Assembly: GCA_021789695.1 (NCBI GenBank)
Contig: JAJYJH010000008.1
Span: forward strand, 8,595-72,594
Source of the DNA: a bacterium
Lineage (GTDB): Bacteria > Elusimicrobiota > Elusimicrobia > Elusimicrobiales > UBA9959
Length of the DNA stretch: 64,000 bases
Reading direction: 5' to 3'
In this document: in pieces, positions 25,143-60,293 of the stretch
How positions within the stretch are numbered: position 1 is the stretch's first letter
How the letters are laid out: each line of letters begins with the position of its first letter
Program-made: the position numbers and the translations under genes
Notes under the pieces: model-generated
Seen by the model: the letters and a program-made list of their open reading frames with translations, nothing else
Told to the model about the DNA's origin: nothing
Database searches by the model: none

Positions 25143-25143
25143 C

Positions 25144-26199: not shown

Positions 26200-26237
26200 T
26201 CCGCCGCCCTGCCGCCGGAGATGGACGGGGCAGTTTT

Positions 26238-30807: not shown

Positions 30808-30921
30808 TTATTCTCCGTCCTCCGCAAGAAAATGCGCCTCGTCGCCGGCCGGATGCCGGTCATTCTCCTGGCACGGAGAGATCTCGCGGGCTGCATCGAT
30901 AGCGGCTTTTCCTTAAGTCCC

Positions 30922-30927
30922 ATTATA
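30922..30927 (-). promoter_or_regulatory. Candidate -10 (TATAAT) for the radical SAM-to-methyltransferase operon
   Basis: Minus-strand TATAAT about 115 nt upstream of ATG 30807 in the 165-bp gap. No clear -35. Confidence 0.3.
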
Positions 30928-30972
30928 TTAAATGCCTCGCCGCCGGGGCGCTTGGGCCGCGTCGGAATGCGG

Positions 30973-31743
30973 TCAGGCGCGGCCTGGCCCGAGCAGCGTA
31001 CCCGGCCGGGACCGTCCGGCGAGAAAGGAAACGAGGCCCTCCGGGCGCCTGCCGTCGAGCACGAGGGCCCGCCCCCCTCCTCGCACTATCTCCAGCAGTT
31101 CGGCAGCCTTGCCGCGCATCCCCCCGCTTACGTCTCCCGGCTCCCGGGGACAGGCGCGGGAGAACGCCTCCAGGCCCGGCTCGTCCAGCTCCGGCAGCAC
31201 CGCGCCGGCGGCGTCCAGCAACCCCGGCGCGTCGGTGAAGAATACCGCCAGGCGCGGCCGCAGCAGCCCGCAGAGCCCGACGGCCAACGCGTCGCTGGAG
31301 ACCACTACGCCGCCCCCAGTCCCGTCGGGAAATATACCGCTGGAGACCACCGGCACGAGTCCTGACGCCAGCGGGGCCTCGATAGCAGAAGCATCCGCGG
31401 GCACGGGGCGCCCCCCCCTCAATAAAAAATACTCCGGCCCCGGCACACTTCCGACCACCAGCCCGGCCGAGCGCAGTTCCCGGAGAAATGCCAGATGAAG
31501 GCGCAGAAGGGAAGTATTGATGGCGTCTACGGGCGCCCCGCCCGGAGGTACCCTGCCGGACAGGTAGCCGTAGCGAAGGGCCGGAGGCTTGCCGAAGGAA
31601 CCGGTGCCGTGGACCAGCGCGAAAGGCTCGCGCAGTTCTGCCAGAGAGGCCGCCAGGCGCGAGGCGGCCGCCCGGTCAAAGACCGGAGACTCCCCTTTGC
31701 GGGTTATCACGCTGCCACCGGCTTTTATCACCAGCATCGCCAT
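30973..31743 (-). CDS. Isopentenyl phosphate kinase family (amino-acid-kinase fold) protein
   Basis: VIKAGGSVITRK, LVHGTGSFGK, LVPVVSSG, FFTDAPGLL and DVSGGMRGK, aligned by eye to archaeal IPK motifs. Confidence 0.65.
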   Translation of the reverse strand: MAMLVIKAGGSVITRKGESPVFDRAAASRLAASLAELREPFALVHGTGSFGKPPALRYGYLSGRVPPGGAPVDAINTSLLRLHLAFLRELRSAGLVVGSVPGPEYFLLRGGRPVPADASAIEAPLASGLVPVVSSGIFPDGTGGGVVVSSDALAVGLCGLLRPRLAVFFTDAPGLLDAAGAVLPELDEPGLEAFSRACPREPGDVSGGMRGKAAELLEIVRGGGRALVLDGRRPEGLVSFLAGRSRPGTLLGPGRA

Positions 31744-31761: not shown

Positions 31762-32814
31762 ATGAGCTCCGGAGCCAAAGACGGGAAGGGCGGGCCTGAG
31801 CCGGGGAAGCCGTCACCCCGCGCGCTGCTTGAGCTGGCCGCGCTTAAGGCCAGACTCCTGAAACTGCCTGAAGGCGCCCCCGGCACGCTCTATATCGCGC
31901 TCACCTACCGCTGCGATCTCTCCTGCCGTCACTGCAAGTACCGTTCCTCGGCGCCGGGCCCGGATATGCCGTTCGGAGACCTGAGGCGGCTGCTGGAAAA
32001 CGCCGCCGCCTCCGGCATACCCCGCGTCGCCTTTTTCGGCGGAGAACCGCTACTCTACCCGCGCCTGGAACAGGCCGTGCGCCTGGCCTCGGGACTTGGG
32101 CTTTTTACGCAGCTGGACACCAACGGCCAGACGCTGGGCGCCCGGAGGGCCTTGGAACTTGCAGCCGCCGGGCTCTCCCTTGCCACTATCAGCCTGCACT
32201 CCGCCGATGAGGCCGGGCACGACGCCCTAAGCGGACTTGGCTCATTCCGCAAGGCCATCGCGGCGGTTTCGGCGGCCCTGCGCGCCGGGCTCTTCGTCCA
32301 CGTCTCCTCTTGTTTCTTCTCGGCCGGGCTTTCCTCCGGAGAACCGGGCCGGCTGGCGGCCTTCGCCCGCGGCCTGGGCGCCCACGGCGCAAGGGCGCTG
32401 CTCTATTCCCCGCCGGAGGGCGGTTCCGCGGACCTGCCGCGCCGCTTGTCAAAGGCCTTGGCCGCGGCCGACCTGGACGGCTTCTCGCGCGGCTGCGTCC
32501 GCTCCGGCCGGCGAGCCTGCGCCGCAGCCGCCGGGGACATACTTTTCACGGACGCAGGATTGAACGTGAAGAGCTGCCCCTACTCCGTCCGGTCGCTGGG
32601 AAAGGCCACGGCCGGGCTGCGCCGCTTCTTCGGCGGCGAGCGCGCTCCCGCCGGTCTCTTCCCCTGCCATTCCCCACGCCCATCCTGCCGCGCAGCTAGC
32701 GCAGGCCGTAATTTTGCTAAAATAATCAGATGCGAGAGGCTAGGAAGAACAAAGCCATATCCGAATCCGTCAGCTGGCGCAAGACCGGTGAAGAGGCCGT
32801 CCTCCTTGACCTAG
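31762..32814 (+). CDS. Radical SAM peptide-maturase-like enzyme with a partial SPASM/twitch region
   Basis: YRCDLSCRHCKY (CX3CX2C), FFGGEPLLYP, and C-terminal C-x12-G-x5-C (ACAAAAGDILFTDAGLNVKSC). The last ~30 codons run across an AT-rich spacer into the PqqD gene. Confidence 0.75.
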   Translation: MSSGAKDGKGGPEPGKPSPRALLELAALKARLLKLPEGAPGTLYIALTYRCDLSCRHCKYRSSAPGPDMPFGDLRRLLENAAASGIPRVAFFGGEPLLYPRLEQAVRLASGLGLFTQLDTNGQTLGARRALELAAAGLSLATISLHSADEAGHDALSGLGSFRKAIAAVSAALRAGLFVHVSSCFFSAGLSSGEPGRLAAFARGLGAHGARALLYSPPEGGSADLPRRLSKALAAADLDGFSRGCVRSGRRACAAAAGDILFTDAGLNVKSCPYSVRSLGKATAGLRRFFGGERAPAGLFPCHSPRPSCRAASAGRNFAKIIRCERLGRTKPYPNPSAGARPVKRPSSLT

Positions 32815-33014
32815 AAACCTCGGAGTATTACTCCCTTAACGACACCGGCACGTTCATATGGGAGCGTTTCGCCGCCGGCAAGCCGCTCTCCTCGATAACC
32901 GAAGAACTGGCCGCCGAATACGGCATATCCGCCGGCCAGGCCGAGCGCGACGCCGAGGCCTTTCTCAAGGACCTATCCGTCCTGAAGATCCTGAACGAGG
33001 GGGACGCTAAATGA
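32730..33014 (+). CDS. PqqD-family peptide chaperone (stand-alone RRE)
   Basis: EAVLLDLETSEYYSLNDTGTFIWE followed by a winged-helix-like tail. 94 aa. Confidence 0.8.
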   Translation: MREARKNKAISESVSWRKTGEEAVLLDLETSEYYSLNDTGTFIWERFAAGKPLSSITEELAAEYGISAGQAERDAEAFLKDLSVLKILNEGDAK

Positions 33015-33115
33015 AACGCCAGAAGACCAGCCAGCCCAAACAGAAAAAATACCGCAAACCGCAGATAAAATCCCACGGCAAGCTAAGTGAAGTCGCCTCG
33101 GCGTTCAAGCCCTAA
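33011..33115 (+). CDS. Candidate RiPP precursor peptide, 34 aa (MKRQKTSQPKQKKYRKPQIKSHGKLSEVASAFKP)
   Basis: Not in the ORF track (below 60 aa). The ATG overlaps the PqqD stop (ATGA), and GAGGGGG lies 7 nt upstream. The Y14-P17-I19-G23 spacing equals the RRE-recognised leader motif YxxPxL-x3-G. Locally A-rich. Confidence 0.55.
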   Translation: MKRQKTSQPKQKKYRKPQIKSHGKLSEVASAFKP

Positions 33116-34070
33116 GCGGAAGACCGCTTTTCTTTTCCCGGGCTCCGGGGCGCAATACCCCGGGATGGGGCGCGCGTTGCGGAACGCCTTCCCCCCGATA
33201 GAGCGGCAGCTCGCCTTCATCGACCGCGCCGCGCTGCGTCCCCTTTCCGCCGCGATGGACGGGCCGGCCAGTCTCCTTTTTCCGGAGAAGACGCACGCGG
33301 ACCCGACCGTGTTCATGGAAGTAGTAATGGAACTGTCGCTGGCCGTGGCCTTGTCCATGACGGAGGCCGGCGCCCATCCTGACGCGGCAGCAGGGCGCAG
33401 CATGGGCGAATACAGCGCCGCCGCCTTCACCGGTGTATTAACGATGAGCGACTGCTTTGAACTGGTCCGCTTCGTGACGCTGAAGGGGCAGGAGGACTGC
33501 CTGGCGCAGCCGAGCGTTCTCGCGACGGTTTACGGCCTGACCAGGCGCGAGCTCGCGGCGGCGGCGGCAAAAGTGGCCGCTGCCGGTGAACCCTGCGAAG
33601 TGACAGTCTTCTACGACAAGGCCCGCCTCGGAGTGGCCGGCCTGCGCGAAAGCGCCCTGCCGTTGCTAAAGAAGGCCCTCTTACCGCTGCGCCACCGACT
33701 GAGCCTTTCGCGGGAACCCGGGGCCTTCCACACAAGCCTTTTCGACAGGCTGGCCGCCGGGGCGGCCGCGAAATTCGGGGAAACGCCCTTCTCCGCGCCG
33801 GCCATGCCACTTTACATGAACGCCGACGCGCGCAGGGCCACCTCCGCGCGGACCGTCAGGGAGAAGTTGGCAGCGGCGCTGAACAGCCCCGTACTCTGGC
33901 AGGAGACCATAGAGCGCATGCTGGCCGACGGGGTGCGTAACTTCGTGGAGCTGGCGCCAGGCGCGATGCTGACCGAGTTCGTCTGCGAACTGCCGCCCGA
34001 CGCCGAGGTCCTGCGCACGGACACTCCCGGGAACTACGCCAGAACCCTGCAAAGGCTGGCCGGGAAATGA
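33087..34070 (+). CDS. FabD-like acyltransferase (malonyl-CoA:ACP transacylase family)
   Basis: FLFPGSGAQYPGMG and nucleophile elbow GRSMGEYSA. The only in-frame start is GTG 33087, inside the small ORF. Confidence 0.75.
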   Translation: MKSPRRSSPKRKTAFLFPGSGAQYPGMGRALRNAFPPIERQLAFIDRAALRPLSAAMDGPASLLFPEKTHADPTVFMEVVMELSLAVALSMTEAGAHPDAAAGRSMGEYSAAAFTGVLTMSDCFELVRFVTLKGQEDCLAQPSVLATVYGLTRRELAAAAAKVAAAGEPCEVTVFYDKARLGVAGLRESALPLLKKALLPLRHRLSLSREPGAFHTSLFDRLAAGAAAKFGETPFSAPAMPLYMNADARRATSARTVREKLAAALNSPVLWQETIERMLADGVRNFVELAPGAMLTEFVCELPPDAEVLRTDTPGNYARTLQRLAGK

Positions 34071-35086
34071 TCCCGACGGAAGAACTTCACTTCGACCTCG
34101 GCGGCTGCAGGGTACTATTCTCCTGCGGGGACCCGCTCCTCTCCTTCGCCGTAGCCGCAAGCCTGTCCGCTTTCTCGGCCCCGCCCGGACACCCGGACAT
34201 CAGCATATCCGCCGAACTCGGCACAGTCTCCTCCGCGGGCCTCTCCCCAGCCCTCTTCTCCACGCGGCGCTGGAAAGTACTCAAGGCCCCGGCCGGCAGA
34301 CGCCTGGTCTGGTACCCGGAAGGGGCCGTCTGCGAATACGATTTCAGGACGCGCACCGGACGGCTGCGCTCCGCCGACCGCGCGCTGTTGGAGGAACTCT
34401 CCTATCTGCTGATACTGTCGCGGGCCGGGGAGGAACTAGACCTGGCCGGACTGCACAGGCTGCACGCCGGCGCGCTGGGCCACTCCGGGCAGGCGCTGCT
34501 CTTCTGCGGCCCGCGCGGCTCGGGTAAGACCACGCTGTTGCTGGAGCTGCTCAAGGACTCCGCTTTTTCGCTGCTTTCCGACGACACGCCGCTGGTGAGC
34601 GCGGACGGGTCGGTGCTGCCTTTTCCGGCCCGCGTCGGCCTTGCGCTCGACAGCCCACATCTGCCCGGCTTCGGCGGTCTGCGCCGGCTGGAGCGCCGCC
34701 ATTATCCGCCCAAGCGCCTGCTTGACACCGTCAAGGCGGGCTTCAGGCTGGCGGGCCCGCTGCCGCCCGGGGCTCTTTTCCTGCTCAGGCGCTCGGAACG
34801 GGCGCGGATACGCCGCGCGGCCATTCCCGCCGCCGCGGCGGAACTGGCCGTCTCGCTGGCCGTCGGCTGGGGCGTGCCGCAGCTGGCCGAATACTTCCTG
34901 AGGGCGGAACCGGAAGATCTCCTGCGCAAGGGCGGCATACTGGCCTCCAGGCTTCGGGCCGCGGCCCGCCTGCTCCGGCGCTCCGGCCGCTATATCTTCG
35001 AACTTTCCCCCGACCACGCGAGAAACGCGCAGGAACTCAGGGCCTTCCTTGGCAGCGGCAGCGCGCAGGGCGCGCGCGGCCTCTGA
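34067..35086 (+). CDS. HprK-related kinase (HPr kinase C-terminal-domain-like P-loop protein)
   Basis: LFCGPRGSGKTTLLLEL followed by LLSDDTPLV. ATGA overlap with the acyltransferase. Confidence 0.6.
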   Translation: MIPTEELHFDLGGCRVLFSCGDPLLSFAVAASLSAFSAPPGHPDISISAELGTVSSAGLSPALFSTRRWKVLKAPAGRRLVWYPEGAVCEYDFRTRTGRLRSADRALLEELSYLLILSRAGEELDLAGLHRLHAGALGHSGQALLFCGPRGSGKTTLLLELLKDSAFSLLSDDTPLVSADGSVLPFPARVGLALDSPHLPGFGGLRRLERRHYPPKRLLDTVKAGFRLAGPLPPGALFLLRRSERARIRRAAIPAAAAELAVSLAVGWGVPQLAEYFLRAEPEDLLRKGGILASRLRAAARLLRRSGRYIFELSPDHARNAQELRAFLGSGSAQGARGL

Positions 35087-36053
35087 ACGTTTCCAACAGT
35101 TCCTCCAAAGCTCCGAATATCCAGCCCGCGCCGTAAGCAGCGTGCAGCGCCGGGTAAAGGCAGAACACAAGCGGCGCGTCAGACGCGCCTGCACCGGATA
35201 AAATCGCGGAAACCGCGCAGGCCGAAAGATAGAGAAGGCCGAGCGCGCAGGCCGTCCCCGGCGCCGCCGCGGCCAGCACCGGCCCGGCCGCGAGGGCCGC
35301 CGGCGGCAGCAGCGTGAAGGCGCAGAAACCGCTGCGGGCCTGGACCGTTATCTGGCCCCTCCCCCGCCCGGAGGAAAAGACCTGACGGACGAAAGCCCCT
35401 GCGGAGGTCCTGCGGCGGTGCACCAGATTGAGGTCCCCGCTCAGCAGCATACGCGCTCCGTCCGCGGCCATTCTGCCCAGCAGCAGGTTCTCCTCGGCGC
35501 TACTCAGATGTCCCTCAAAGGAAAGCCCGCGCGCGGCCAGGAATTCCCTGTCCAGCGTCAGATTGCAGAGCACGAACTTGCCGGGACCGGCCTCGTAGGA
35601 GCCGGAAACGGGGGCGAACCTGGGCGTGAACGGCCCGCTTGCCCAGCGCGAGCGCAGCAGCCGGTAGACCGCGCGCTCGAAACGGCCGGCCCCGGAGTAA
35701 AGTTCCTGCCCGCCGCCGAATACGGAAAAGCCGCCGCCCGCCTCTATCAGCGCCCTCAACCGCCAAAAGTACCCCGGCGGCAGAACGGTGTCGTCGTCCA
35801 GGAAACAGAGCCAGCGCCCGGAAGCCAGGCGGACCAGCTCGTTGCGGGCCTCCCCGCGGCAGCCCCGTGGCAGCTGTACGGCGCGGGTGCCCGGGAACTT
35901 TCCCAGCACTCCGGAGGAGGCTGGATCGGCCCCGTCGATCCCCACCAGCACTTCGCCGGGGACTCCGGCTGCCCGCAGGCTCTCCAGGCATCGGGCCAGC
36001 AGCTCCGGCCTGCCGCGTGTAAGTATGATAACGCTTATCTCAGCGCCCGGCAT
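35037..36053 (-). CDS. Family 2 glycosyltransferase with a C-terminal membrane region
   Basis: ISVIILTRGRPELL and CFLDDDTV, plus hydrophobic C-terminal helices. Confidence 0.7.
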   Translation of the reverse strand: MPGAEISVIILTRGRPELLARCLESLRAAGVPGEVLVGIDGADPASSGVLGKFPGTRAVQLPRGCRGEARNELVRLASGRWLCFLDDDTVLPPGYFWRLRALIEAGGGFSVFGGGQELYSGAGRFERAVYRLLRSRWASGPFTPRFAPVSGSYEAGPGKFVLCNLTLDREFLAARGLSFEGHLSSAEENLLLGRMAADGARMLLSGDLNLVHRRRTSAGAFVRQVFSSGRGRGQITVQARSGFCAFTLLPPAALAAGPVLAAAAPGTACALGLLYLSACAVSAILSGAGASDAPLVFCLYPALHAAYGAGWIFGALEELLETFRGRARPARCRCQGRP

Positions 36054-39000
36054 CGTCCAGCCTCCCGGCCGCCGCGGCGGTCTGGGCCGCCGTGAACAGA
36101 TAATTCTCCCGGTTATAACCGCCTTTCAGAAAGGCGTTCCAGTCCGGAGAAGCCGCCCCGAAAGCCGCGCGGAACCGCTCCGCCAGTTCGGCGGGGCGGG
36201 AGAACGGAACCGCCTCCCCGGTCTCCAGCAGCAGACGCAAGCCGGCGGCCCGCGTAAAAAAATAATGCGGCGGCATGGTCCCCCAGAAAGAGCGCCAGGA
36301 AACCGCGAAATGCCTGGCCGCCAGCACGGCGCCGCCCTTCAGCGCCTCCGCAGTGGGCGCCGGCAGGACGTCCACTCCTGAAGAATAGATCCCGCCGTCC
36401 TCCGGCCGCGCCCCGCGGCCGCCGTAAAGCAGGTCCAGCGCCAGCGACGGATTGTTGAGATACGGCAAGCCGCACAGGGCCGCGAAGGAGGCGCGGGTAA
36501 GCAGCAGCGGAGCCGCAGAAAAATAGTGGAACGAACCGCGCGCCTTCAGGAAAGCTTCTGCGGCGCGCAGGAAGAAGTCCCTGTCTGCGGCTGCCTCGTC
36601 CGGCAGCACGACGTAGACCCGGTAGAGCGGGTCCAGGACGACCCCGGCCTGGCCGCCGGCTCCGGCCGCCAGTTCCGCGCACGCGGCTTCGAAAGCGTGG
36701 GTATTGAAAAGGCCGGCGGCGGGGGGCGGCGCGGGGCGACCGCCGGAGAAAGGAGGGCAGGCGGCGTGCAACGAGGCGAAAGCGGCGAAGGCCGAGTCGG
36801 CCGGGGCCGGTGAAAAGGCCGGGCCTGCGCCGAAATGCGAGGCGGTGTAGGCGGACCGGCTCTCCCTCTCCGGGGAGCCCGGGTCCGTGTAGCGCCTGAC
36901 GTCTATCATGCTTTTGGCGCAGTTGCGGCGGCGGAAGGCCGGCGGCAGATCTGGAGACAAAAAATGGCCCAGCAGCAGAGTGTAGGCGTAGAAGGCCTCG
37001 GTCAGATCGGCCTGGGGAGAGTTCTCCGGAGGCTGCATCACGAGCCGCGCCCCGCCAAGCAGGCGGGAAGCCCTCTCGAACTCCGCTCCCTTCACCCCCC
37101 AGCAGCGCATAAAGGAGGAGAACTCCGCCGCCGGGGACTGCAGCGCCTCTCCGGTGAATGGGAACAGCGCGCGAAAAAAACGCAGCTTCCGGCGCAGCGA
37201 AACGAAAAGTTCCCAATCCGCCGCGGGAGGTCCCGGCGGGAACAGCAGCGCCAGGTCCATGTCGCTCAGCCCCGGAACCCAGCCGCCTGAAACCATGCCG
37301 CGGTACAGGTAAACCGAGCCGCCCCGCCCCGGGCGGAGCAGTAGCCCCGCGGCGCCGGCGGCGGCCAGGTAGAGCGCTCTATAGAAGCCGCTGAAAAACG
37401 GGAAGCGGGAGGTGGCGGCCGCGAAACGGAACAGCGCGGAGCGCAGCGCGGACCGGGACGGCCGCCGGAGTGGCGCCTCCCAGGGCAGCCCGTCGAAAGA
37501 CACGTCAGAGCAGCGCAGGTTTGCGCCGTCCCCTGCGGCCAAGCCCGGATAGGGGGAACCGGAAAGGACGCAGCCGCGCAGGAATGCGCTCCCCCCGGAG
37601 ACCCGGAGCCCGCCGTGGGAGCCGCCCAGCACTATCAGGCCGCGGGCGCGCAGCCTCGCGCCGCGCAGTTCCGCCCCGTATTCCTCGCCACGCAGCGTCA
37701 GGTTCTCAGCCTCTATGTCCGCGGGCGCAGAAGCGGAGAGCCCCCCTTTGCCGGAGGCGCTCACGGAAAGCAGTCTGACTCGCCGCGCCGAAATATCCAG
37801 ACCGGCCCCGGCGCCGGCCGCCAGAGAGGAGTTGGATAGTTCCACCGAAGTTCCCGCCGCGGCGCGCAGCGCGGACGAGGCAGAGACGAACTCCGAGGAA
37901 ACCGCGCGGAGGGAGGAGGCCCCTTCCGCCGAGACCGCAGGCCCGCCCACCCCCTCCGCTTTCAGGGCATCGAGCGAAGCCGAGGAGCGCCCCGAAATGG
38001 CCAGCGCCGGAAATCCGCCGCAAGAGCGCAGGACGCAGGAATAGGCCCGCAGTCCAGCCAGACCGCCGGCGGCAACGACCGGGCCGCCGGAACTTTCCGC
38101 GTTCACCCTGGTCACCGATGCCGAGGAGCGTTCAGAAAGGACCAGCGCCGGCGGAGCGCCGGAGGAACGACAGGAGGAAAAGAACAGCGAAGCGCGGCCT
38201 GCCAGTTCCGCGGCCGGTCCGGAGTTGCCGAAAAACTCCGAGTTCTCCGCGCGCAAGCCGGCTCTGCCGGCGGCGTAAAGCCCGGCGCCGCAGTTCTTCA
38301 CGGAACAGCCGTCCAGAGAGGCGGACACGGAACCTTCGGCATAGAGGGCCGGCCCGGCCAGGTCGGAGAACGCGCACTTCCCCGCCCGCAGCAGGGAGCG
38401 CCCGGCCGCCATTATCCCAGCGGCGCAGCCGTGGACGGAAAGGCCAAAGAACCCCGCCGAGGCGTCCCCCCAGAGCTCGGCCGCGGGGCCGGAAGAGGCA
38501 GAAATCAAGCCGCTCCGGAAAAGGACGACGGCCGCTCCAGAGACCAGCAGAGCCGGCCCTCTGCCGGCCGAAAAAGAGCAGTCCTCCAGCGAGGCCGAGG
38601 AGCGCCCATAGAGCTCGGCGCCGCGTTCGACGGATTCTACCGCGCAGGAGCGCGCATCCACCCGCCCCCGGTCCCTGGCCGACAGAGCGCAGCCGGAAAC
38701 CGCGCGCAGCGTGCAGCGGGACAGTTCCAGTACGGCGTCCCCAAGCGCGTGAAGACCGGCGAAGCCAGGCCCGGAAAAGGTTATCCCCGCGGCCGGGCCG
38801 CCAGCGGCCTTGAGAGCGCCATAGACCAGCAGTTTGGCCCCGGCACTCTCGAGGGAAAGCGTCCCGCCGCCGGCCGAGGCGCGCAGGACCGGAAAGAACC
38901 ATGGTTCGCGGCGTTCAAAGAACACCTCGGTGCCAGGCAGGACCGTCACTGTGACTCCGCGCTCTATGGTAAGATAGTCCGCCACCGTCACCCGGCCGCT

Positions 39001-39591
39001 CCAGGTCTCGTCGCAGGAGATACGTCCGCTCTTCAGCAGCCCGGCCGGAGCGGGGCCGGAGGAAGGCAGGCGGGCGGGAAGGGCGGCCAGCGCGGAGAGG
39101 GCAGGGTAGACGCGGGACTCCCAGGCCAGCCAGAGGGGGTCCAGCAGCGAGCCCTCGCGGCCGGGCAGCAGGCGGCAGAGCAGGCGGAACGCCGACGAAG
39201 CGACGGCCACCGAGAGGTAGAGCAGCTTCGCGGCCGCGGCGGAATAGACGGCCAGGAAAAAACCGCGCGCCCCTCCGCGCGGCAGCCGCCGGCGCGTCCC
39301 CGCCCGGTCGAAGGCCGTCACGAGACCGCCGGGTTTAAAGGCGGAAGGCGGCCAGTCCGGCAGCAGATTGGCGTCGCCCTTGCAGAGAAAAAGGCGCCGC
39401 CCCAGGAACGAAGCGTTCAGCAGCACCCGGTGTATGACGTAGCCGCAGGGAAGGGCGCCCCGCCATTTAACCAATAGCGCAACGTCTCCGGAAACGACCT
39501 CGGCCGGCGCGCAGCGGCGCACGTGCGCCGCGTCTCCCGGCTCCAGGAGAAAACGCATCGAATGCCCAAGAACCGGGTAGGTCTTTTCCAA
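36040..39591 (-). CDS. 1183-aa multidomain protein: S24/S26 (SipW/Sec11-like) peptidase, TM segment, parallel beta-helix repeats, TM segment, nucleotidyltransferase-fold domain
   Basis: GHSMRFLLEPGD, VIHRV and CKGDANLLPD at the N-terminus. About 500 aa of Gly/Ala/Ser/Cys periodic repeats follow. Then YRGMVSGGWVPGLSDMDLALLF (NTase G-S/DxD pattern). Confidence 0.7.
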   Translation of the reverse strand: MEKTYPVLGHSMRFLLEPGDAAHVRRCAPAEVVSGDVALLVKWRGALPCGYVIHRVLLNASFLGRRLFLCKGDANLLPDWPPSAFKPGGLVTAFDRAGTRRRLPRGGARGFFLAVYSAAAAKLLYLSVAVASSAFRLLCRLLPGREGSLLDPLWLAWESRVYPALSALAALPARLPSSGPAPAGLLKSGRISCDETWSGRVTVADYLTIERGVTVTVLPGTEVFFERREPWFFPVLRASAGGGTLSLESAGAKLLVYGALKAAGGPAAGITFSGPGFAGLHALGDAVLELSRCTLRAVSGCALSARDRGRVDARSCAVESVERGAELYGRSSASLEDCSFSAGRGPALLVSGAAVVLFRSGLISASSGPAAELWGDASAGFFGLSVHGCAAGIMAAGRSLLRAGKCAFSDLAGPALYAEGSVSASLDGCSVKNCGAGLYAAGRAGLRAENSEFFGNSGPAAELAGRASLFFSSCRSSGAPPALVLSERSSASVTRVNAESSGGPVVAAGGLAGLRAYSCVLRSCGGFPALAISGRSSASLDALKAEGVGGPAVSAEGASSLRAVSSEFVSASSALRAAAGTSVELSNSSLAAGAGAGLDISARRVRLLSVSASGKGGLSASAPADIEAENLTLRGEEYGAELRGARLRARGLIVLGGSHGGLRVSGGSAFLRGCVLSGSPYPGLAAGDGANLRCSDVSFDGLPWEAPLRRPSRSALRSALFRFAAATSRFPFFSGFYRALYLAAAGAAGLLLRPGRGGSVYLYRGMVSGGWVPGLSDMDLALLFPPGPPAADWELFVSLRRKLRFFRALFPFTGEALQSPAAEFSSFMRCWGVKGAEFERASRLLGGARLVMQPPENSPQADLTEAFYAYTLLLGHFLSPDLPPAFRRRNCAKSMIDVRRYTDPGSPERESRSAYTASHFGAGPAFSPAPADSAFAAFASLHAACPPFSGGRPAPPPAAGLFNTHAFEAACAELAAGAGGQAGVVLDPLYRVYVVLPDEAAADRDFFLRAAEAFLKARGSFHYFSAAPLLLTRASFAALCGLPYLNNPSLALDLLYGGRGARPEDGGIYSSGVDVLPAPTAEALKGGAVLAARHFAVSWRSFWGTMPPHYFFTRAAGLRLLLETGEAVPFSRPAELAERFRAAFGAASPDWNAFLKGGYNRENYLFTAAQTAAAAGRLDDAGR

Positions 39592-39611: not shown

Positions 39612-40412
39612 TCAGGCGGCCTTCAGGCTGCTCGGGTCGCTCTCAAGATACGGGTCCAGCTCGTCCAGGAATTCCAGCGCCTTGCGGCACCATTTATCCA
39701 CGAAGACCTCGCGATTCTTGACCGCGCAGGAATGGAAATGCTCGTGTCCGTCGAAGCTGGCGTGGTGGCGGTGCCAGACGAAGACTTCCTTGGCGACCTT
39801 AAGTTGCCAGCCGGCCTGCCGCAGGCGCAGAGAATAGTCGAAGTCCTCGAAACAGCCGGTGCCGAAGCGCTCGTCGAACAGGCCCACGCTCTCGTAGGCC
39901 CGGCGGCGCAGCATGAGGCAGAAACCGACAAGGCGGTGCGCCTCGAAGCTCTCGGCCCGGAACCTGAGACGCATGGCCTGGGAGAAGGCGGACAGGGACT
40001 TCCTGTCTTTTTCCACTGTTGGGGCCAGAACTACGCGCTGCACGCCTACGGTACGGTTGGTTAGCGGGCCGCAGGCCCCGACCGCGGGATAGGCGTCGAG
40101 GCAGGCGGCCAGGCCCTGCAGGCCGCCTTCGAAGAAAGCCACGTCGCTGTTCACCACCGCGATGTACTCACCTGTAGCGGCCCTTAGGCCCCGGTTGACG
40201 GCCTTGGCGAAGCCCAGATTAGAGGCGTTGCGCAGCCGCAACGCGCCGCGCTTTGCAGCTACGTAGCGCCGCGTCTCCGGGCGCGAGCCGTTGTCGACCA
40301 GTATGAGCTCGTAAAGCCCGCCAGCCGTGCGTTCCAGGCTATCCAGGCAGGACCTGAGGTCCGGGAGTGCGTTGAAAACAGGAATAACCACGCTTATTTT
40401 CTTGTCTGGCAT
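39612..40412 (-). CDS. Family 2 glycosyltransferase
   Basis: ISVVIPVFNALPDL, LILVDNGS and VVNSDV. Confidence 0.8.
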   Translation of the reverse strand: MPDKKISVVIPVFNALPDLRSCLDSLERTAGGLYELILVDNGSRPETRRYVAAKRGALRLRNASNLGFAKAVNRGLRAATGEYIAVVNSDVAFFEGGLQGLAACLDAYPAVGACGPLTNRTVGVQRVVLAPTVEKDRKSLSAFSQAMRLRFRAESFEAHRLVGFCLMLRRRAYESVGLFDERFGTGCFEDFDYSLRLRQAGWQLKVAKEVFVWHRHHASFDGHEHFHSCAVKNREVFVDKWCRKALEFLDELDPYLESDPSSLKAA

Positions 40413-40471: not shown

Positions 40472-42241
40472 ATGGCCACGGCGCCCGGACAGCGTAAACA
40501 TATTCTTTTTGCCTTCCTTGCCTTCGCCGCCGGTCTGACCGCCCAGCTCCCAGCCGTGACCGACAGGCTGCTGTGGGACGACGCGCAGTTCGTCGCGCGG
40601 AATCCCTTCGTCTCCGACTGCGCCAACCTCGCCAAGGCGCTGGACCCCGTCTATCTCTTCAAGGTCCTGCCAGTACGCATGAGCGCCAGGCCGGTGGTGA
40701 ATGCCGCGCTGCTGGCGGACGTCTGCTCCGGCGCAGGGCCGCGCGGTATGCGGATCACGAACGTGCTGCTGCACGCCTGCGGCGCGGCCATGCTCTTCGC
40801 TCTGTTGCTGGTTTTATGCGGCTCTCCGCCGGCGGCCCTGTTCGGAGCGCTGGTCTTCGCCATCCATCCGGCCGTCTCGGAAGCCGTGCAGATAGTCGCG
40901 TTCCGCTCCCACCTGCTCGGATTCTTTTTCTTTTCAGGGGCGCTCGCGCTGGCGGTCCTGGCCGGACGCGGGGCCGGGACCGCAGCCTCCCTGGCGGGCG
41001 CGGCGTGCTATTTGCTGGCCGTCCTGAGCGTGGAGACGACCGCGGTCCTGCCCCTCTCAGCGGCCCTGGCCGTCTGGTTCGATTCGGGGAGGGATGGCCT
41101 CAGGCGCGCCGCCCCGCTCTTCGCGGCCCTGGCGCTGATTGGGGCCTTCTACCTGTGGTTCAGGGTCCCGCGCTCGGGTTACGAACTGCCCGGCTCGAAG
41201 CCGGGCGTCTCCGCCCCGTCAGTTCTCTACCCGGCCGGCCTTCTTCCGCCCCCCTCCGCGCCGCAGGCAGCCGGGCGAGGCTGGAGCGAGCTGCCTCCCT
41301 GGCGCGCTGTTTACGCCAGCGGCAGCGCCAACCTCTACACGATGTCAGCGGTCACGCTGGACTACCTGCGAGAGCTGGTCCTGCCCCTTGGCCTGAAAGC
41401 GGACTATGCGCCCAAGGTAATAACTGACCCGCGGCGCGGCCTGAGGGCGCTGGCGATCTGCCTGGCGGTACTGGCGTCTGGGCTGATCCTTTTTTTCAGG
41501 AGGCGGCTCTCCGGGCTGGGGCTGATGCTGACGTTGATAGCCCTGCTGCCGGCCCTGGACCTGGTGCACATCTACAACCTGCGGGCGGACCGCTATCTTT
41601 ACCTGCCGCTGGCGGGCTTCGCGCTGCTTGCCGCGGCCGCTTTCAGGCGGGCGGACAATCTGGGCGGGCCCCTCAGGGCGGCGGTCCTGGCCGCCGGGGC
41701 CGCCTGGCTGGCCGGCCTCGGCGCGCTCACCGTCTCGCGCTGGCCGCAGTTCGCCGACGACAAAGCGCTCTTTTCGGCGGCAGCCGCCGGAGGCTCGCCC
41801 AGGGCGCACGCCAACCTGGCTGGAACGCTGCTGCGGGATGGCGACTGCGGCGGAGCGGTCAAAGAATCGGCCGAGGCGGCAAGGCTAGACCCAGGGGATC
41901 CCTTCCTGCGTCTTAGGCTGGGTTACGCGCTGGCCTGGTGCGACCGCGGTAGGGAGGCCATAATCGCCATAGGCAGCGTCCCCGAGACCCCCGACACGGT
42001 TTTCCTGCACGGTCTGGCTTATATGGAAAGCGATCCGGAAAAGGCGGCGGGGCTGATAAACGCCGCGCTCAAAAAGGAGCCGGGACGCGCGGATATGCGG
42101 CTGGCCCTGGCCTTAGCCCTGGGCAGGGCGCCGGCCGGGTTGGACCCCGCCTCCGCGGCCGAATTCGCCGCGGTGCAGGCCTCCTTTAAGAAAGGCGGCC
42201 TGCGCGGCGCGACGCTCAGTGCTTTAGGCCGAAATTGGTGA
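40472..42241 (+). CDS. Polytopic membrane protein with C-terminal TPR repeats (PMT_2/TMTC-like GT-C candidate)
   Basis: LLWDDAQFVARNPFV N-terminal motif, about 10 TM helices, and a TPR tail. Confidence 0.55.
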   Translation: MATAPGQRKHILFAFLAFAAGLTAQLPAVTDRLLWDDAQFVARNPFVSDCANLAKALDPVYLFKVLPVRMSARPVVNAALLADVCSGAGPRGMRITNVLLHACGAAMLFALLLVLCGSPPAALFGALVFAIHPAVSEAVQIVAFRSHLLGFFFFSGALALAVLAGRGAGTAASLAGAACYLLAVLSVETTAVLPLSAALAVWFDSGRDGLRRAAPLFAALALIGAFYLWFRVPRSGYELPGSKPGVSAPSVLYPAGLLPPPSAPQAAGRGWSELPPWRAVYASGSANLYTMSAVTLDYLRELVLPLGLKADYAPKVITDPRRGLRALAICLAVLASGLILFFRRRLSGLGLMLTLIALLPALDLVHIYNLRADRYLYLPLAGFALLAAAAFRRADNLGGPLRAAVLAAGAAWLAGLGALTVSRWPQFADDKALFSAAAAGGSPRAHANLAGTLLRDGDCGGAVKESAEAARLDPGDPFLRLRLGYALAWCDRGREAIIAIGSVPETPDTVFLHGLAYMESDPEKAAGLINAALKKEPGRADMRLALALALGRAPAGLDPASAAEFAAVQASFKKGGLRGATLSALGRNW

Positions 42242-60221: not shown

Positions 60222-60293
60222 AGCCGAGGATGGGACTCGAACCCACAACCTGTCGCTTACGAAGCGAATGCTCTACCATTGAGCTACCTCGGC
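60222..60293 (-). tRNA. tRNA-Thr (anticodon CGU)
   Basis: A 72-nt cloverleaf folded by hand: acceptor GCCGAGG/CCTCGGC, D-arm GCTC/GAGC, anticodon loop TTCGTAA, T-arm GTGGG-TTCGAGT-CCCAT. No encoded CCA. Confidence 0.9.

What the first reader, a model, noticed from the sequence alone, without database searches (positions are those of the whole stretch)
31762..35086. Lasso-less PqqD/HprK-kinase cassette with a radical SAM maturase and a FabD-like acyltransferase
Five co-directional genes are overlapping or tightly spaced: radical SAM/SPASM-like, PqqD, the small ORF, a FabD-like acyltransferase and an HprK-related kinase. The ATGA overlaps are at 33011-33014 and 34067-34070. HPr-kinase-like enzymes paired with PqqD proteins are known from lasso-peptide clusters, where they phosphorylate a precursor Ser. 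The candidate peptide has Ser26 and Ser30 near its C-terminus. Here the lasso cyclase and leader protease are replaced by a radical SAM enzyme and an acyltransferase, and a large peptidase-containing protein lies on the convergent strand. I do not recognise this enzyme combination as any described RiPP class.
Basis: partly seen in the sequence, partly recalled or inferred. Interest (0 to 1): 0.8.

Follow-up and report, generated by a model that had tools for sequence, protein, structure and literature searches.

The report
Lasso-less phosphopeptide cassette with extra enzymes
A tightly packed, strongly conserved gene set in Elusimicrobia encodes a 34-residue peptide and the enzymes that probably modify it. 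It resembles the "linear polyphosphorylated peptide" systems described in 2026 in Bacillota, but adds a radical SAM enzyme and a FabD-like acyltransferase, so its product is probably new chemistry.

Summary
Five co-directional genes (radical SAM, PqqD, a 34-aa ORF, a FabD-like acyltransferase and an HprK/PEPCK-fold kinase) sit at the stated coordinates, with both ATGA overlaps.

The small ORF is real. Forty related loci carry it, in 27 distinct DNA versions. Its last 13 codons show 1455 synonymous against 78 non-synonymous pairwise differences. Its motif YxKPxIKxHGKI matches lasso and LPP leaders.

No lasso cyclase or B2 protease was found in the window or in any related locus, so this is not a fragment of a lasso locus.

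The combination is not wholly undescribed. Popov et al. [quoted passage not shown] Those clusters lie in glycosyltransferase-rich loci and are reported as restricted to Bacillota.

The convergent 1183-aa protein supplies the peptidase domain (9/9 orthologues hit TIGR02228) and probably a nucleotidyltransferase-like domain.

Four things are new: the phylum, the cassette-specific acyltransferase, the radical SAM enzyme, and a near-invariant core of only 4-5 residues. Verdict: a new variant of a known kind, with unknown product chemistry. Interest 0.62.

The parts
31762..32814 (+). Radical SAM enzyme. It has a Cx3Cx2C motif and a shortened SPASM/twitch-like C-terminal half. The conserved protein ends at about 32667 (FPC). 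The remainder is a non-conserved tail created by a 1-nt deletion near 32690.
   Evidence: PF04055 E 1.2e-19. Best NCBIfam hits are SPASM-type maturases (GeoRSP, PqqE, ScmF, MftC), all far below their cut-offs. Orthologue alignment shows the conserved Cys residues SSC, Cx8CAA, SCPY and FPC.
32730..33014 (+). Discrete PqqD-type RiPP recognition element (RRE).
   Evidence: PF05402 E 3e-19. Best NCBIfam hit is the lasso PqqD chaperone NF033530, E 9e-15, below its cut-off. N37 and D74 are invariant in 12 sequences, including a true lasso B1. Their spacing equals that of LppB N33/D70 (PMC13381572).
33011..33115 (+). Precursor peptide, 34 aa. It has a Lys-rich N-terminus, a leader motif Y14xxP17xI19xxH22G23K24[IL]25, and a near-invariant C-terminus S26-E-V-A-S30-A-F-K-P34.
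   Evidence: Found in 40 loci in 27 distinct DNA versions. Variable sites by codon position are 7/5/20. The last 13 codons show 1455 synonymous against 78 non-synonymous pairwise differences. The overlap read in the acyltransferase frame shows 81 against 934. It was called as a gene in L001, L003 and L062.
33087..34070 (+). FabD-superfamily acyltransferase of a clade specific to this cassette.
   Evidence: Family profile against PDB malonyl-CoA:ACP transacylases, E 3e-40. Q23, S105 (GRSxGE) and H215 (GAFHT) are invariant. The FabD Arg117 position is V or F (alignment to E. coli FabD made from memory). Of 44 homologues at E <= 1e-10, 42 are 44-100% identical and, where named, from Elusimicrobia. 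The other two (33% and 29%) look like ordinary FabD; the 33% one (P0113/L060) was checked and is.
34067..35086 (+). HprK/PEPCK-fold P-loop kinase.
   Evidence: AF2 model with pLDDT 91.8. Foldseek top PDB hits are PEP carboxykinases, E 1e-10, TMq 0.58. 36/38 family members hit TIGR04352, 33 hit TIGR04355, 9 hit true HprK and 9 hit PEPCK. The motif H133-x14-G148xxGxGKT-x15-DD173 is invariant or nearly so.
35037..36053 (-). GT2 glycosyltransferase with a C-terminal hydrophobic segment. It converges on the kinase and overlaps its 3' end by 50 nt. It is the kinase's most constant partner.
   Evidence: PF00535 E 7e-12. Hydrophobic segment at residues 243-285. It is paired with the kinase in every locus with at least 43% kinase identity, including those that lack PqqD and the peptide.
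39307..39591 (-). N-terminal S26B (archaeal/ER-type signal peptidase I-like) domain of the 1183-aa protein. It is the candidate leader peptidase, with S11, H54 and D73.
   Evidence: 9/9 orthologous domains hit TIGR02228, best E 8.6e-10, below the cut-off. The profile's top PDB hits are SEC11C and SEC11A, aligned across the catalytic Ser, His and Asp, although E is only 0.3-0.7. S11, H54 and D73 are invariant.
37492..39024 (-). Right-handed beta-helix region of the 1183-aa protein. It is flanked by a clear hydrophobic segment (residues about 108-142) and a weaker one (about 730-752).
   Evidence: PF13229 E 3e-20. Hydropathy analysis. Its length varies from 1023 to about 1700 aa among orthologues.
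36040..37329 (-). C-terminal domain of the 1183-aa protein, with a Pol-beta-type nucleotidyltransferase signature: YLYRG-x10-SDMD, then FPFTGE.
   Evidence: No Pfam hit. There are 261 relatives among 1.84 billion representatives. S-D-x-D is invariant and LG[ED] nearly so in 24 diverse members. The only significant PDB hit of that profile is the minimal nucleotidyltransferase 1ylq, E 9.2e-4. The AF2 model was too poor to use, pLDDT 51.
39612..40412 (-). Second GT2 glycosyltransferase, soluble type, syntenic with the cassette.
   Evidence: PF00535 E 1.5e-26. Best NCBIfam hit is the mycofactocin glycosyltransferase MftF, E 9e-26, far below its cut-off. It is 62-93% identical in the related loci.
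40472..42241 (+). Polytopic membrane protein with C-terminal TPR repeats. It is syntenic, but whether it takes part is uncertain.
   Evidence: About 10 hydrophobic segments. Weak TPR hits. Present in most related loci, and also beside kinase+GT2 pairs that lack the peptide.

Best explanation
This is a lasso-less RiPP pathway of the LPP type that has gained extra tailoring enzymes.

Proposed mechanism:
1. The 34-aa peptide is translated from an operon in which PqqD, the peptide, the acyltransferase and the kinase overlap end to end.
2. PqqD, acting as the RRE, binds the leader motif Y14-x-x-P17-x-I19.
3. [quoted passage not shown] It also presents it to the HprK-fold kinase, which phosphorylates a Ser/Thr hydroxyl. 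The only position conserved as Ser/Thr in all variants is 26. Ser30 is the alternative in the main clade.
4. The FabD-like enzyme uses its Ser105-His215 dyad to form an acyl-enzyme with a non-malonyl acyl group and passes it to the peptide or to a group attached to it.
5. The cytoplasmic S26 domain of the convergent 1183-aa membrane protein removes the leader next to V28-A29-S30. This leaves a core of 4-5 residues, (S)AFKP.
6. The protein's nucleotidyltransferase-like domain and the two GT2 enzymes then add sugar or phosphodiester decorations.

What is shown: the genes, their families, the catalytic residues, the co-conservation, and purifying selection on the peptide.

What is inferred: every chemical step, the order of the steps, the cleavage site, and the involvement of the GT2 enzymes.
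For: - Gene identities and catalytic motifs.
- The peptide is under strong purifying selection in its own frame, including where it overlaps the acyltransferase start.
- The leader motif is shared with a canonical lasso cluster (L059) and a lasso-like precursor (L041). It also matches the LPP consensus YxxPxVLxHQxIxFET at Y, P, V/I, H, I/L, and A/T at the -1 position (PMC13381572).
- PqqD N37 and D74 are invariant, with the spacing of the residues LppB uses to hold the leader Tyr and Pro (PMC13381572).
- In LPPs it was shown experimentally that the RRE presents the precursor to an archaeal-type signal peptidase with a Ser/His/Asp triad, and that the HprK-like kinase phosphorylates a core Ser.
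- The set rSAM-PqqD-peptide-AT-kinase / GT2 / S26-beta-helix-NTase-like / GT2 is conserved in order at 40-90% protein identity.
- The accessory enzymes vary while PqqD, peptide, acyltransferase, kinase, GT2a and the S26/NTase-like protein stay. L005 has rSAM-SPASM plus an AMP-binding enzyme. L021 has the acyltransferase fused to a spermidine-synthase-like domain and no rSAM within the part of the contig held.
- A distant variant, L026, keeps the kinase, PqqD and a stand-alone NTase-like protein among glycosyltransferases.
Against: - No product is known.
- The kinase and its convergent GT2 also occur without PqqD, peptide, acyltransferase or S26 protein within 10 kb (L006/L022, L019, L061). The kinase's substrate therefore need not be the peptide.
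- The variant cores GIIVRE, GADDDPVR and GHAK contain no Ser or Thr.
- The inferred core of 4-5 residues is far shorter than LPP cores (the characterised one is 45 aa). It is near-invariant, unlike the highly variable LPP C-termini.
- The nucleotidyltransferase assignment rests on a motif and one PDB hit at E 9e-4. hhalign against a lasso-type NTP_transf_5 protein was negative.
- No MsbA-type exporter lies nearby.
- The flanking genes form a large glycan and isoprenoid locus, so some cassette enzymes could serve that pathway instead.
Confidence: 0.55

Rival explanations
1. The peptide is a scaffold for a small cofactor-like or envelope-bound molecule, not a secreted peptide antibiotic. As with PQQ or mycofactocin, an RRE-guided radical SAM enzyme alters the invariant C-terminal residues and a peptidase releases the small modified piece. 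GT2 enzymes then glycosylate it, with phosphate and acyl groups as extra handles. Alternatively, the phosphorylated peptide primes a glycan built by the neighbouring glycosyltransferases.
For: - The C-terminus HGKIS[ED]VASAFKP is near-invariant even where the enzymes are only about 40% identical (L034/L038, L045, L033/L056). PqqA and MftA behave this way; antimicrobial cores do not.
- The locus lies in a conserved neighbourhood in many Elusimicrobia genomes, which suggests vertical inheritance.
- Both GT2 enzymes have the mycofactocin glycosyltransferase MftF as their best NCBIfam hit.
- The parts list RRE + rSAM + peptidase + GT2 parallels the mycofactocin pathway.
Against: - All scores against the PqqE, MftC and MftF models are far below their cut-offs.
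- The variant clusters have quite different tails (GIIVRE, GADDDPVR, GHAK), and L021 shows no rSAM in the part of the contig held.
- No redox partner genes were recognised.
- MftF-like hits are typical of any GT2 enzyme.
Confidence: 0.2
2. Only PqqD, the peptide and perhaps the S26 protein form a RiPP unit. The kinase, acyltransferase, radical SAM enzyme and GT2 enzymes belong to the surrounding glycan and isoprenoid-lipid pathway and are merely packed next to it.
For: - Kinase+GT2 pairs exist without PqqD or the peptide, next to ABC-2 transporters and glycosyltransferases (L006, L019, L061, L027).
- The window carries polyprenyl synthases, UbiA, isopentenyl phosphate kinase, an ABC-2 transporter and several glycosyltransferases within 15 kb.
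- FabD-type enzymes normally serve lipid synthesis.
Against: - The acyltransferase start codon lies inside the peptide ORF in every locus. The ATGA overlaps link PqqD to the peptide and the acyltransferase to the kinase.
- This acyltransferase clade was found only in such cassettes.
- No ACP gene was seen in the cassette.
- HprK-like kinases are experimentally peptide kinases in lasso and LPP systems.
- L061 places the kinase beside radical SAM proteins and MsbA-like exporters, which is again a RiPP-like setting.
Confidence: 0.15
3. The cassette is a remnant of an ordinary lasso-peptide locus whose cyclase and B2 protease lie elsewhere or were lost recently.
For: The RRE is closest to lasso B1 proteins, and the leader motif is shared with true lasso precursors.
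Against: - tblastn with a lasso cyclase, a B2 protease and a lasso-type nucleotidyltransferase found nothing at E <= 1e-3 in the 64-kb window or in any related locus.
- The core is too short (4-5 aa) and lacks the acidic ring-closing residue.
- The cassette is intact and under purifying selection in dozens of lineages.
Confidence: 0.03

Closest known systems
Linear polyphosphorylated peptides (LPP; lppA-K-B-S-D-N of Paenibacillus alginolyticus; Popov et al., Nat Commun 2026, PMC13381572)
   Same: [quoted passage not shown] - A nucleotidyltransferase-type partner (probable here, not proven).
- No macrolactam cyclase.
- A precursor with a YxxPx[V/I]xxH..I motif.
- Location inside a glycosyltransferase-rich polysaccharide locus.
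   Different: - The phylum is Elusimicrobia; LPPs are reported as restricted to Bacillota.
- A radical SAM enzyme and a FabD-like acyltransferase are added.
- The peptidase and NTase-like domains are fused in one 1100-1700-aa membrane protein around a beta-helix.
- The NTase-like domain is not PF14907.
- There is no MsbA-like exporter.
- The precursor is 34 aa with a near-invariant tail of 4-5 residues, instead of 35-200 aa with variable C-termini.
- The conserved Ser/Thr lies upstream of the inferred cleavage site.
- Inheritance appears vertical rather than patchy.
Phosphorylated or phosphoglycosylated lasso peptides (paeninodin, pseudomycoidin)
   Same: A B1-type PqqD RRE that recognises a YxxP leader. 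An HPr-kinase homologue that phosphorylates a precursor Ser. A nucleotidyltransferase that adds hexose to the phosphate and is sometimes fused to the leader protease (PMC8498205).
   Different: No Asn-synthetase-like cyclase and no transglutaminase-like B2 protease. The core is too short to form a lasso. The C-terminal residue is Pro, not Ser.
RRE-dependent radical SAM systems acting near a peptide C-terminus (PqqD/PqqE with PqqA; MftB/MftC/MftE/MftF with MftA)
   Same: A discrete PqqD-family chaperone next to a SPASM/twitch-type radical SAM enzyme. A short precursor with an invariant C-terminus. A peptidase and GT2 enzymes in the same locus. The PqqA motif WKKPxF...EV[T] lines up with YRKPxI...EV[A] (from my memory of the PqqA sequence).
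   Different: All equivalog scores are far below their cut-offs: PqqE 58 against 381 bits, MftC 44 against 265. There is no Glu-x3-Tyr or Gly-Val-Tyr motif. A kinase and an acyltransferase are present.
NCBIfam in-silico cassettes: SynChlorMet (ScmC/D/E/F) and the HPr-rel-A system (TIGR04352/TIGR04353)
   Same: They combine a PqqD-family protein with radical SAM/SPASM proteins, or with an HprK-related kinase. The proteins here give weak hits to ScmD, ScmE, ScmF, ScmC, HprK_rel_A and PqqD_rel_X.
   Different: Every hit is far below the curated cut-off. Those cassettes have no FabD-like enzyme or S26 fusion protein in their model names, and none has been characterised, as far as I know.
FabD / MdcH malonyl-CoA:ACP transacylases
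   Same: The same fold, the Ser-His dyad and the oxyanion Gln.
   Different: The Arg that binds the malonyl carboxylate is replaced by Val or Phe. His in GHSxG is replaced by Arg. No ACP is present in the cassette. The clade is confined to this cassette. In variants it is fused to, or preceded by, a spermidine-synthase-like domain or an AMP-binding enzyme.

Membership tests
LPP (linear polyphosphorylated peptide) BGC | Discrete RRE (PqqD fold) with the Asn and Asp that hold the leader Pro and Tyr | tested here: met
   PF05402 E 3e-19. N37 and D74 are invariant, with the same 37-residue spacing as LppB N33/D70 (PMC13381572).
LPP (linear polyphosphorylated peptide) BGC | HprK-like kinase | tested here: met
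   AF2 model with pLDDT 91.8 has the PEPCK/HprK fold. 36/38 family members hit HprK_rel_A and 9 hit true HprK. Direct similarity to LppK was not tested, because no LppK sequence was available.
LPP (linear polyphosphorylated peptide) BGC | [quoted passage not shown] | tested here: met
   9/9 N-terminal domains hit TIGR02228, best E 8.6e-10, below the cut-off. They align to SEC11A/C over the catalytic S, H and D. S11, H54 and D73 are invariant. Here it is a domain of a fusion protein, not a free enzyme.
LPP (linear polyphosphorylated peptide) BGC | NTP-transferase (LppN) | tested here: inconclusive
   The C-terminal domain has an invariant G..SDxD..G[ED] signature, and its profile hits the nucleotidyltransferase 1ylq at E 9.2e-4. 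It has no Pfam hit. hhalign against a lasso-type PF14907 protein gave probability 0.2. The AF2 model was unusable.
LPP (linear polyphosphorylated peptide) BGC | MsbA-like exporter (LppD) | tested here: not met
   tblastn with an MsbA-like lasso exporter gave only ATPase-domain matches in the window and loci. The nearest transporter is an ABC-2 type, 10 kb upstream.
LPP (linear polyphosphorylated peptide) BGC | Precursor motif YxxPxVLxHQxIxFETxxS, followed by a long variable core | tested here: inconclusive
   Y14, P17, I19, H22, [I/L]25 and A29 (T in L021) match. L, Q, F, E and Ser+3 do not. The core is 4-5 aa and near-invariant rather than long and variable.
LPP (linear polyphosphorylated peptide) BGC | Polyphosphorylation of a core Ser, and RRE-dependent cleavage | not testable with these tools
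   Needs expression and mass spectrometry.
Lasso peptide BGC | ATP-dependent macrolactam synthetase (Asn-synthase-like C protein) | tested here: not met
   No tblastn hit at E <= 1e-3 in the 64-kb window or in any related locus. No Asn_synthase appears in the called genes of L001-L006, L061 or L062.
Lasso peptide BGC | Transglutaminase-like B2 leader protease | tested here: not met
   No tblastn hit.
Lasso peptide BGC | Core with an N-terminal Gly/Ala/Ser/Cys, an Asp/Glu at position 7-9, and a tail | tested here: not met
   Only 4-5 residues follow the position equivalent to the lasso cleavage site (sequence).
PqqE / MftC equivalogs (RRE-dependent rSAM-SPASM) | Score above the curated NCBIfam cut-off, and the cognate precursor motif | tested here: not met
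   PqqE 58.5 against 381 bits; MftC 44.2 against 265. The precursor lacks E-x3-Y and GVY.
SynChlorMet cassette / HPr-rel-A system (NCBIfam) | Scores above the cut-offs of TIGR04248-04251 and TIGR04352/04353 | tested here: not met
   ScmD 27 against 100, ScmF 51 against 400, HprK_rel_A 28 against 200, PqqD_rel_X 20.6 against 35.
FabD malonyl-CoA:ACP transacylase | Ser-His dyad, the malonyl-binding Arg117, and a score above the TIGR00128 cut-off | tested here: not met
   The dyad is present (S105, H215), but the Arg117 position is V or F and the score is 103.8 against 260.9 bits. It is a member of the superfamily, not of the equivalog.

The most novel reading that the evidence does not exclude
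The cassette makes a previously unknown small, cofactor-like or envelope-anchored molecule from the invariant C-terminal residues of a ribosomal peptide. An RRE-guided radical SAM step, phosphorylation and FabD-type acyl transfer (which I believe would be the first FabD-type acyl transfer in RiPP maturation) build it on the scaffold. A signal-peptidase-like domain releases it, and nucleotidyltransferase and GT2 enzymes decorate it. On this reading the molecule serves a housekeeping role in Elusimicrobia, not a role in warfare.
Probability: 0.2. Interest if true: 0.85.

Novelty: new variant of a known kind. Interest (0 to 1): 0.62.

Why it matters
The LPP logic (a lasso-type RRE and kinase, a signal-peptidase leader protease, no cyclase) was published only in 2026 and was thought to be confined to Bacillota.

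This cassette shows the same logic in a distant, uncultivated phylum. Here it is combined with a radical SAM enzyme and a dedicated FabD-like acyltransferase, and in sister variants with an adenylating enzyme or an aminopropyltransferase-like domain.

That points to new peptide chemistry, possibly a phosphorylated, acylated and perhaps cross-linked or glycosylated short peptide.

It also gives a compact, testable gene set, and a near-invariant peptide that can be looked for by mass spectrometry.

The near-invariance and the conserved synteny suggest a physiological role, in the envelope or as a cofactor, rather than an antibiotic one.

It also assigns a likely context to an unannotated nucleotidyltransferase-like domain family with 261 representative members.

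Tried and rejected
- Sequence profile of the kinase against PDB: only generic P-loop hits, E > 0.02. The fold search was needed to place it.
- Homologue search with the C-terminal domain of the large protein: only 3 hits, because the candidate list filled up. The resulting 4-sequence AF2 model had pLDDT 51 and was not used for fold search.
- hhalign of that domain against a lasso-type NTP_transf_5 protein and against the L006 345-aa neighbour: both negative.
- Literature searches for the exact enzyme combination, for Elusimicrobia RiPPs and for 'HprK-related kinase': nothing found. The LPP paper surfaced only with broader terms.
- P0113, the nearest acyltransferase outside the cassette: an ordinary FabD in an unrelated context.
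- Rfam scan of the window: only a tRNA at 60222-60293.
- Promoter and terminator scan: not above chance, 7 terminator-like sites against 5.2 expected.
- The hairpin after the peptide stop codon is strong only in the window and L007.
- The SAFKP match between the peptide and the S26 domain is exact only in the window. Orthologues have PPS[AS][FY][QE]P, so I treat it as a curiosity.
- The reading as a fragment of a lasso locus was rejected.
- The reading of the small ORF as spurious was rejected.

Full report
**1. What is in the sequence**

The window is GC-rich (about 66% around the finding). It is identical over the 21 kb held as locus L001 to part of a 279-kb metagenome contig. Its closest labelled relatives are all Elusimicrobia or Elusimicrobiales genomes assembled from metagenomes.

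Their family assignments hold:
- Radical SAM, 31762-32814: PF04055, E 1.2e-19.
- PqqD, 32730-33014: PF05402, E 3e-19. Its best NCBIfam hit is the lasso PqqD chaperone NF033530, E 9e-15, below the cut-off.
- A 34-aa ORF, 33011-33115.
- A FabD-superfamily acyltransferase, 33087-34070.
- A P-loop protein, 34067-35086, with a weak hit to HprK-related kinase A.

Both ATGA overlaps are real.

The acyltransferase can only start at the GTG at 33087, since a stop codon lies directly upstream in its frame. Its first 29 nt therefore lie inside the peptide ORF.

One correction is needed. Compared with the 92%-identical relative L007, the window has a 1-nt deletion near 32690. This adds 38 non-conserved residues to the radical SAM ORF and makes it overlap PqqD. 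Orthologues end a few residues after a conserved FPC.

**2. The small ORF is a real, conserved gene**

A motif search in 21 genome loci found the peptide in every locus that has PqqD and the acyltransferase. I then scanned metagenome contigs with a back-translated pattern of the peptide motif. This gave 32 more loci, about 27 of which carry the same peptide beside PqqD, acyltransferase, rSAM or kinase homologues.

In total 40 loci carry the main type, in 27 different DNA versions. The evidence for selection is as follows.
- Variable sites by codon position are 7, 5 and 20.
- In the last 13 codons (HGKISEVASAFKP), pairwise codon differences are 1455 synonymous against 78 non-synonymous.
- The stretch that overlaps the acyltransferase, read in the acyltransferase frame, shows 81 against 934.

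Selection therefore acts on the peptide frame.

The C-terminus stays HGKIS[E/D]VASAFKP even where the neighbouring enzymes are only about 40% identical (L034/L038, L045, L033/L056). Three variant tails exist:
- L005/L018 have two copies, ...HGKITTVAGIIVRE and ...HGKITKVAGADDDPVR.
- L021 has ...HGKISVVTGHAK.

**3. The leader looks like a lasso or LPP leader**

The conserved part is Y14-x-K-P17-x-[I/V/L]19-K-x-H22-G-K-[I/L]25. The same pattern scan also picked up three other loci:
- L059, a canonical lasso cluster with Asn-synthase-like cyclase, PqqD, transglutaminase-like B2, ABC exporter and NTP_transf_5. It carries a KYDKPVLKKHGKIEELTE... ORF.
- L041, whose precursor YKKPELKEHGKIKEITM-GTSSGHGE... 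looks like a lasso precursor.
- L057, from a 36%-GC organism, with PqqD, a Ser/Thr-rich peptide, a GT4, an HprK_rel_A-like kinase, more glycosyltransferases and a sulfotransferase, but no cyclase.

In the PqqD alignment, N37 and D74 are the only invariant internal residues apart from V24 and L26. They are shared with the lasso B1 protein of L059. Their spacing of 37 residues equals that of LppB N33 and D70. Popov et al. showed that those two residues hold the leader Pro and Tyr (PMC13381572).

**4. The enzymes**

*Kinase.* 67 homologues were found, and all named ones are from Elusimicrobia. The AF2 model has pLDDT 91.8. Its best PDB matches are PEP carboxykinases (E 1e-10, TMq 0.58). To my knowledge that fold class also contains the HprK catalytic domain. 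Of 38 family members, 36 hit HprK_rel_A, 33 hit HprK_rel_B, 9 hit genuine HPr kinase and 9 hit PEPCK, all far below the curated cut-offs. The invariant H133, G148xxGxGKT and D172-D173 have the same order as the His, P-loop and Asp-Asp of HPr kinase (the comparison with HprK is from memory).

*Acyltransferase.* The family profile matches malonyl-CoA:ACP transacylase structures at E 3e-40. The oxyanion Gln23, the nucleophile Ser105 (GRSxGE) and His215 (GAFHT) are invariant. The position of FabD Arg117, which binds the malonyl carboxylate, is Val or Phe. This alignment to E. coli FabD was made from memory of its sequence. The acyl group is therefore probably not malonyl. The clade is confined to this cassette: 42 homologues at 44-100% identity, then a drop to 33% and 29%. 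The 33% protein, which I checked, is an ordinary FabD.

*Radical SAM.* It has a Cx3Cx2C motif plus five conserved Cys in the C-terminal half (SSC, Cx8C, SCPY, FPC). That is a shortened SPASM/twitch-type domain. The L005 counterpart has a full SPASM motif.

**5. The convergent genes belong to the unit**

A tblastn table, gene calls and HMM scans all show the same order: rSAM, PqqD, peptide, acyltransferase and kinase, followed on the opposite strand by GT2a, the large protein and GT2b.

The large protein (1183 aa here, 1023 to about 1700 elsewhere) has four parts.
- *An N-terminal S26B domain.* All 9 orthologous domains hit the archaeal-type signal peptidase I model TIGR02228 (best E 8.6e-10, below the cut-off). 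The profile's top PDB hits are human SEC11C and SEC11A, aligned over the catalytic Ser, His and Asp, although the E-values are weak at 0.3-0.7. S11, H54 and D73 are invariant.
- *A clear hydrophobic segment* at residues about 108-142.
- *A right-handed beta-helix* (PF13229).
- *A C-terminal domain of about 430 aa.* It follows a weaker hydrophobic segment and has no Pfam match.

That last domain has 261 relatives among 1.84 billion representative proteins. Many are stand-alone proteins of 450-530 aa, and some are fused to an S24/S26 peptidase or to beta-helices. In 24 diverse members the invariant residues are S-D-x-D, followed about 35 residues later by [L/F]G[E/D]. This is the Pol-beta nucleotidyltransferase signature. 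The only significant PDB hit of that profile is the minimal nucleotidyltransferase 1ylq (E 9.2e-4). I regard the assignment as probable, not proven, for two reasons. hhalign against the lasso-type NTP_transf_5 protein of L059 was negative. The AF2 model from four sequences was too poor to use.

**6. Comparison with the literature**

Searches for the exact combination found nothing. A broader search found Popov et al., Nat Commun, 20 May 2026 (PMC13381572).

That paper defines linear polyphosphorylated peptides (LPPs). They have:
- an archaeal-type signal peptidase LppS as leader peptidase, with catalytic S29, H68 and D93, which needs the RRE to cleave;
- a discrete RRE, LppB;
- an HprK-like kinase, LppK, which puts several phosphates on core Ser3;
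- an NTP-transferase, LppN, whose role was not found;
- an MsbA-like exporter;
- precursors of 35-200 aa with the motif YxxPxVLxHQxIxFETxxS.

The clusters lie in capsule loci full of glycosyltransferases, and the family is described as restricted to Bacillota. The paper does not mention radical SAM enzymes, acyltransferases or Elusimicrobia.

An earlier review records that lasso-associated HPr-kinase homologues phosphorylate a precursor Ser. It also records that a nucleotidyltransferase, sometimes fused to the B2 protease, adds hexose to that phosphate (PMC8498205).

The cassette here shares the RRE, the kinase, the signal-peptidase-type domain, probably the nucleotidyltransferase, the absence of a cyclase, the glycosyltransferase-rich setting and part of the leader motif (Y, P, I/V, H, I/L, and A/T at -1).

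It differs in six ways:
- the phylum;
- the extra radical SAM enzyme and acyltransferase;
- the fusion of peptidase and NTase-like domains around a beta-helix;
- the lack of an MsbA-type exporter;
- the very short, near-invariant tail;
- its conserved genomic neighbourhood.

**7. What is core and what is accessory**

Across the three precursor types, the constant genes are PqqD, the peptide, the acyltransferase, the kinase, GT2a and the S26/NTase-like protein. The accessory enzymes change:
- The main clade has a twitch-like rSAM.
- L005/L018 have an rSAM-SPASM plus an AMP-binding enzyme directly upstream of the acyltransferase.
- L021 shows no rSAM within the 2 kb held upstream of PqqD, and its acyltransferase is fused to a spermidine-synthase-like domain.

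The distant L026 keeps the kinase, PqqD and a stand-alone NTase-like protein among glycosyltransferases, a phosphodiesterase, an APS kinase and an ABC-2 transporter.

The kinase and its convergent GT2a also occur without PqqD, peptide, acyltransferase or S26 protein within 10 kb (L006/L022, L019). In L061 they sit beside three radical SAM-like proteins and two MsbA-like exporters. The kinase-GT2a pair is therefore the tightest unit, and the kinase's substrate is not settled.

**8. Most likely mechanism**

The steps are given under Best explanation. The key arguments are these.

Anchoring on Tyr (-16 in LPP, about -17 in lasso leaders) puts the cleavage site after A29 or S30. This fits the small residues at -1 and -3 (V28-A29-S30) that S26 peptidases prefer (from general knowledge). 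The core is then SAFKP or AFKP.

Position 26 is Ser or Thr in every variant. The variant cores have no Ser or Thr. If the kinase acts on the peptide, Ser26 is therefore the better candidate across the family, and Ser30 only in the main clade.

The acyltransferase, with an intact dyad but no malonyl-binding Arg, and with an adenylating partner in L005, most likely transfers a non-malonyl acyl group.

None of these chemical steps is shown. I give this explanation 0.55. The rivals are:
- a cofactor-like or glycan-priming reading, 0.2;
- a reading in which only part of the cassette serves the peptide, 0.15;
- the lasso-fragment reading, 0.03.

**9. Verdict**

The cassette is best filed as a new variant of the LPP kind, not as a member in the strict sense. 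The exporter feature was tested and is not met, and the precursor motif and the nucleotidyltransferase are only partly matched.

It is of clear interest to RiPP specialists. It takes a class described in 2026 into a new phylum, and it adds enzymes, above all a dedicated FabD-like acyltransferase, that I do not know from RiPP maturation. Interest 0.62.

Noticed in passing
window 24432-31743 (- strand): An isoprenoid-type gene block lies directly upstream of the cassette. It contains a 4-HFC-P synthase (MfnB-like, PF04476 E 3.5e-71), three polyprenyl synthases, a 206-aa hypothetical protein, a UbiA prenyltransferase, a radical SAM enzyme and an archaeal-type isopentenyl phosphate kinase. It is syntenic in several related genomes. 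A methanofuran-type enzyme beside prenyl enzymes in a bacterium is unusual.
   Followed up: partly
window 20711-23037 (+): An ABC-2 permease is followed by an ABC ATPase fused to a histone-deacetylase-family domain. The same fusion occurs in L003, L004 and L062.
   Followed up: no
window ~32690: A 1-nt deletion relative to the 92%-identical L007 extends the radical SAM ORF by 38 non-conserved residues across the PqqD start. It may be an assembly error or a recent mutation.
   Followed up: yes
window 39331-39351 (- strand; residues 81-87 of the 1183-aa protein) and 33098-33112: The peptide's last five residues, SAFKP, recur as PPSAFKP just after the KGDAN motif of the S26 peptidase domain. Orthologues have PPS[AS][FY][QE]P, and the divergent L005 has a different segment. 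This could be chance, a pseudo-substrate or a self-cleavage site.
   Followed up: partly
window 33114-33129 (+): A hairpin AAGCGG-AAGA-CCGCTT followed by a T-rich run starts at the peptide stop codon, inside the acyltransferase codons. It is strong only in the window and L007. Most orthologues have a 4-bp CCG-UAAAA-CGG stem. It could attenuate read-through after the precursor gene.
   Followed up: partly
L057 1213-7407 (metagenome contig Ga0265593_1000009, GC 36%): A separate lasso-less cluster in another organism. It contains PqqD, the peptide MKEARDDLKCRKEEAAYEKPELKKHGKIKKVIMGSPSTTPSTVGATYS, a GT4, an HprK_rel_A-like kinase (E 6e-12), a NodZ-like/GT2 protein, a GT2 and a sulfotransferase.
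   Followed up: partly
L026 8950-19225 (Elusimicrobia RA.bin80): A distant variant with GT2, a kinase (33% identical), GT4, PqqD, a type I phosphodiesterase, an APS kinase, an ABC-2 transporter, GT4 and a stand-alone 522-aa NTase-like protein. No rSAM, acyltransferase, S26 domain or recognisable precursor was found.
   Followed up: partly
L061 3162-15460; L006 3651-8515; L019 4388-6422: The kinase and its convergent GT2 occur without PqqD, peptide, acyltransferase or S26 protein. In L061 they lie beside three radical SAM-like proteins of about 470 aa, whose N-terminal ~130 residues lie outside the radical SAM match, and two MsbA-like ABC exporters.
   Followed up: partly
L021 2687-4822: A single 711-aa ORF fuses a spermine/spermidine-synthase-like domain (PF01564, E 9e-23) to the cassette-type FabD-like acyltransferase. 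No radical SAM gene was found in the part of this contig that is held.
   Followed up: partly
window 36040-37329 (-) and proteins P0115-P0263: The C-terminal domain of the large protein defines a family with no Pfam model. It has 261 representatives at E <= 1e-3, an invariant SDxD motif and a nearly invariant G[ED]. It is often a stand-alone protein of about 500 aa with an N-terminal hydrophobic helix.
   Followed up: partly
window 43512-44195 (-) and 60222-60293 (-): A protein with a type IV pilin-like N-terminal methylation motif lies downstream of the locus. The only Rfam match in the window is a tRNA.
   Followed up: no
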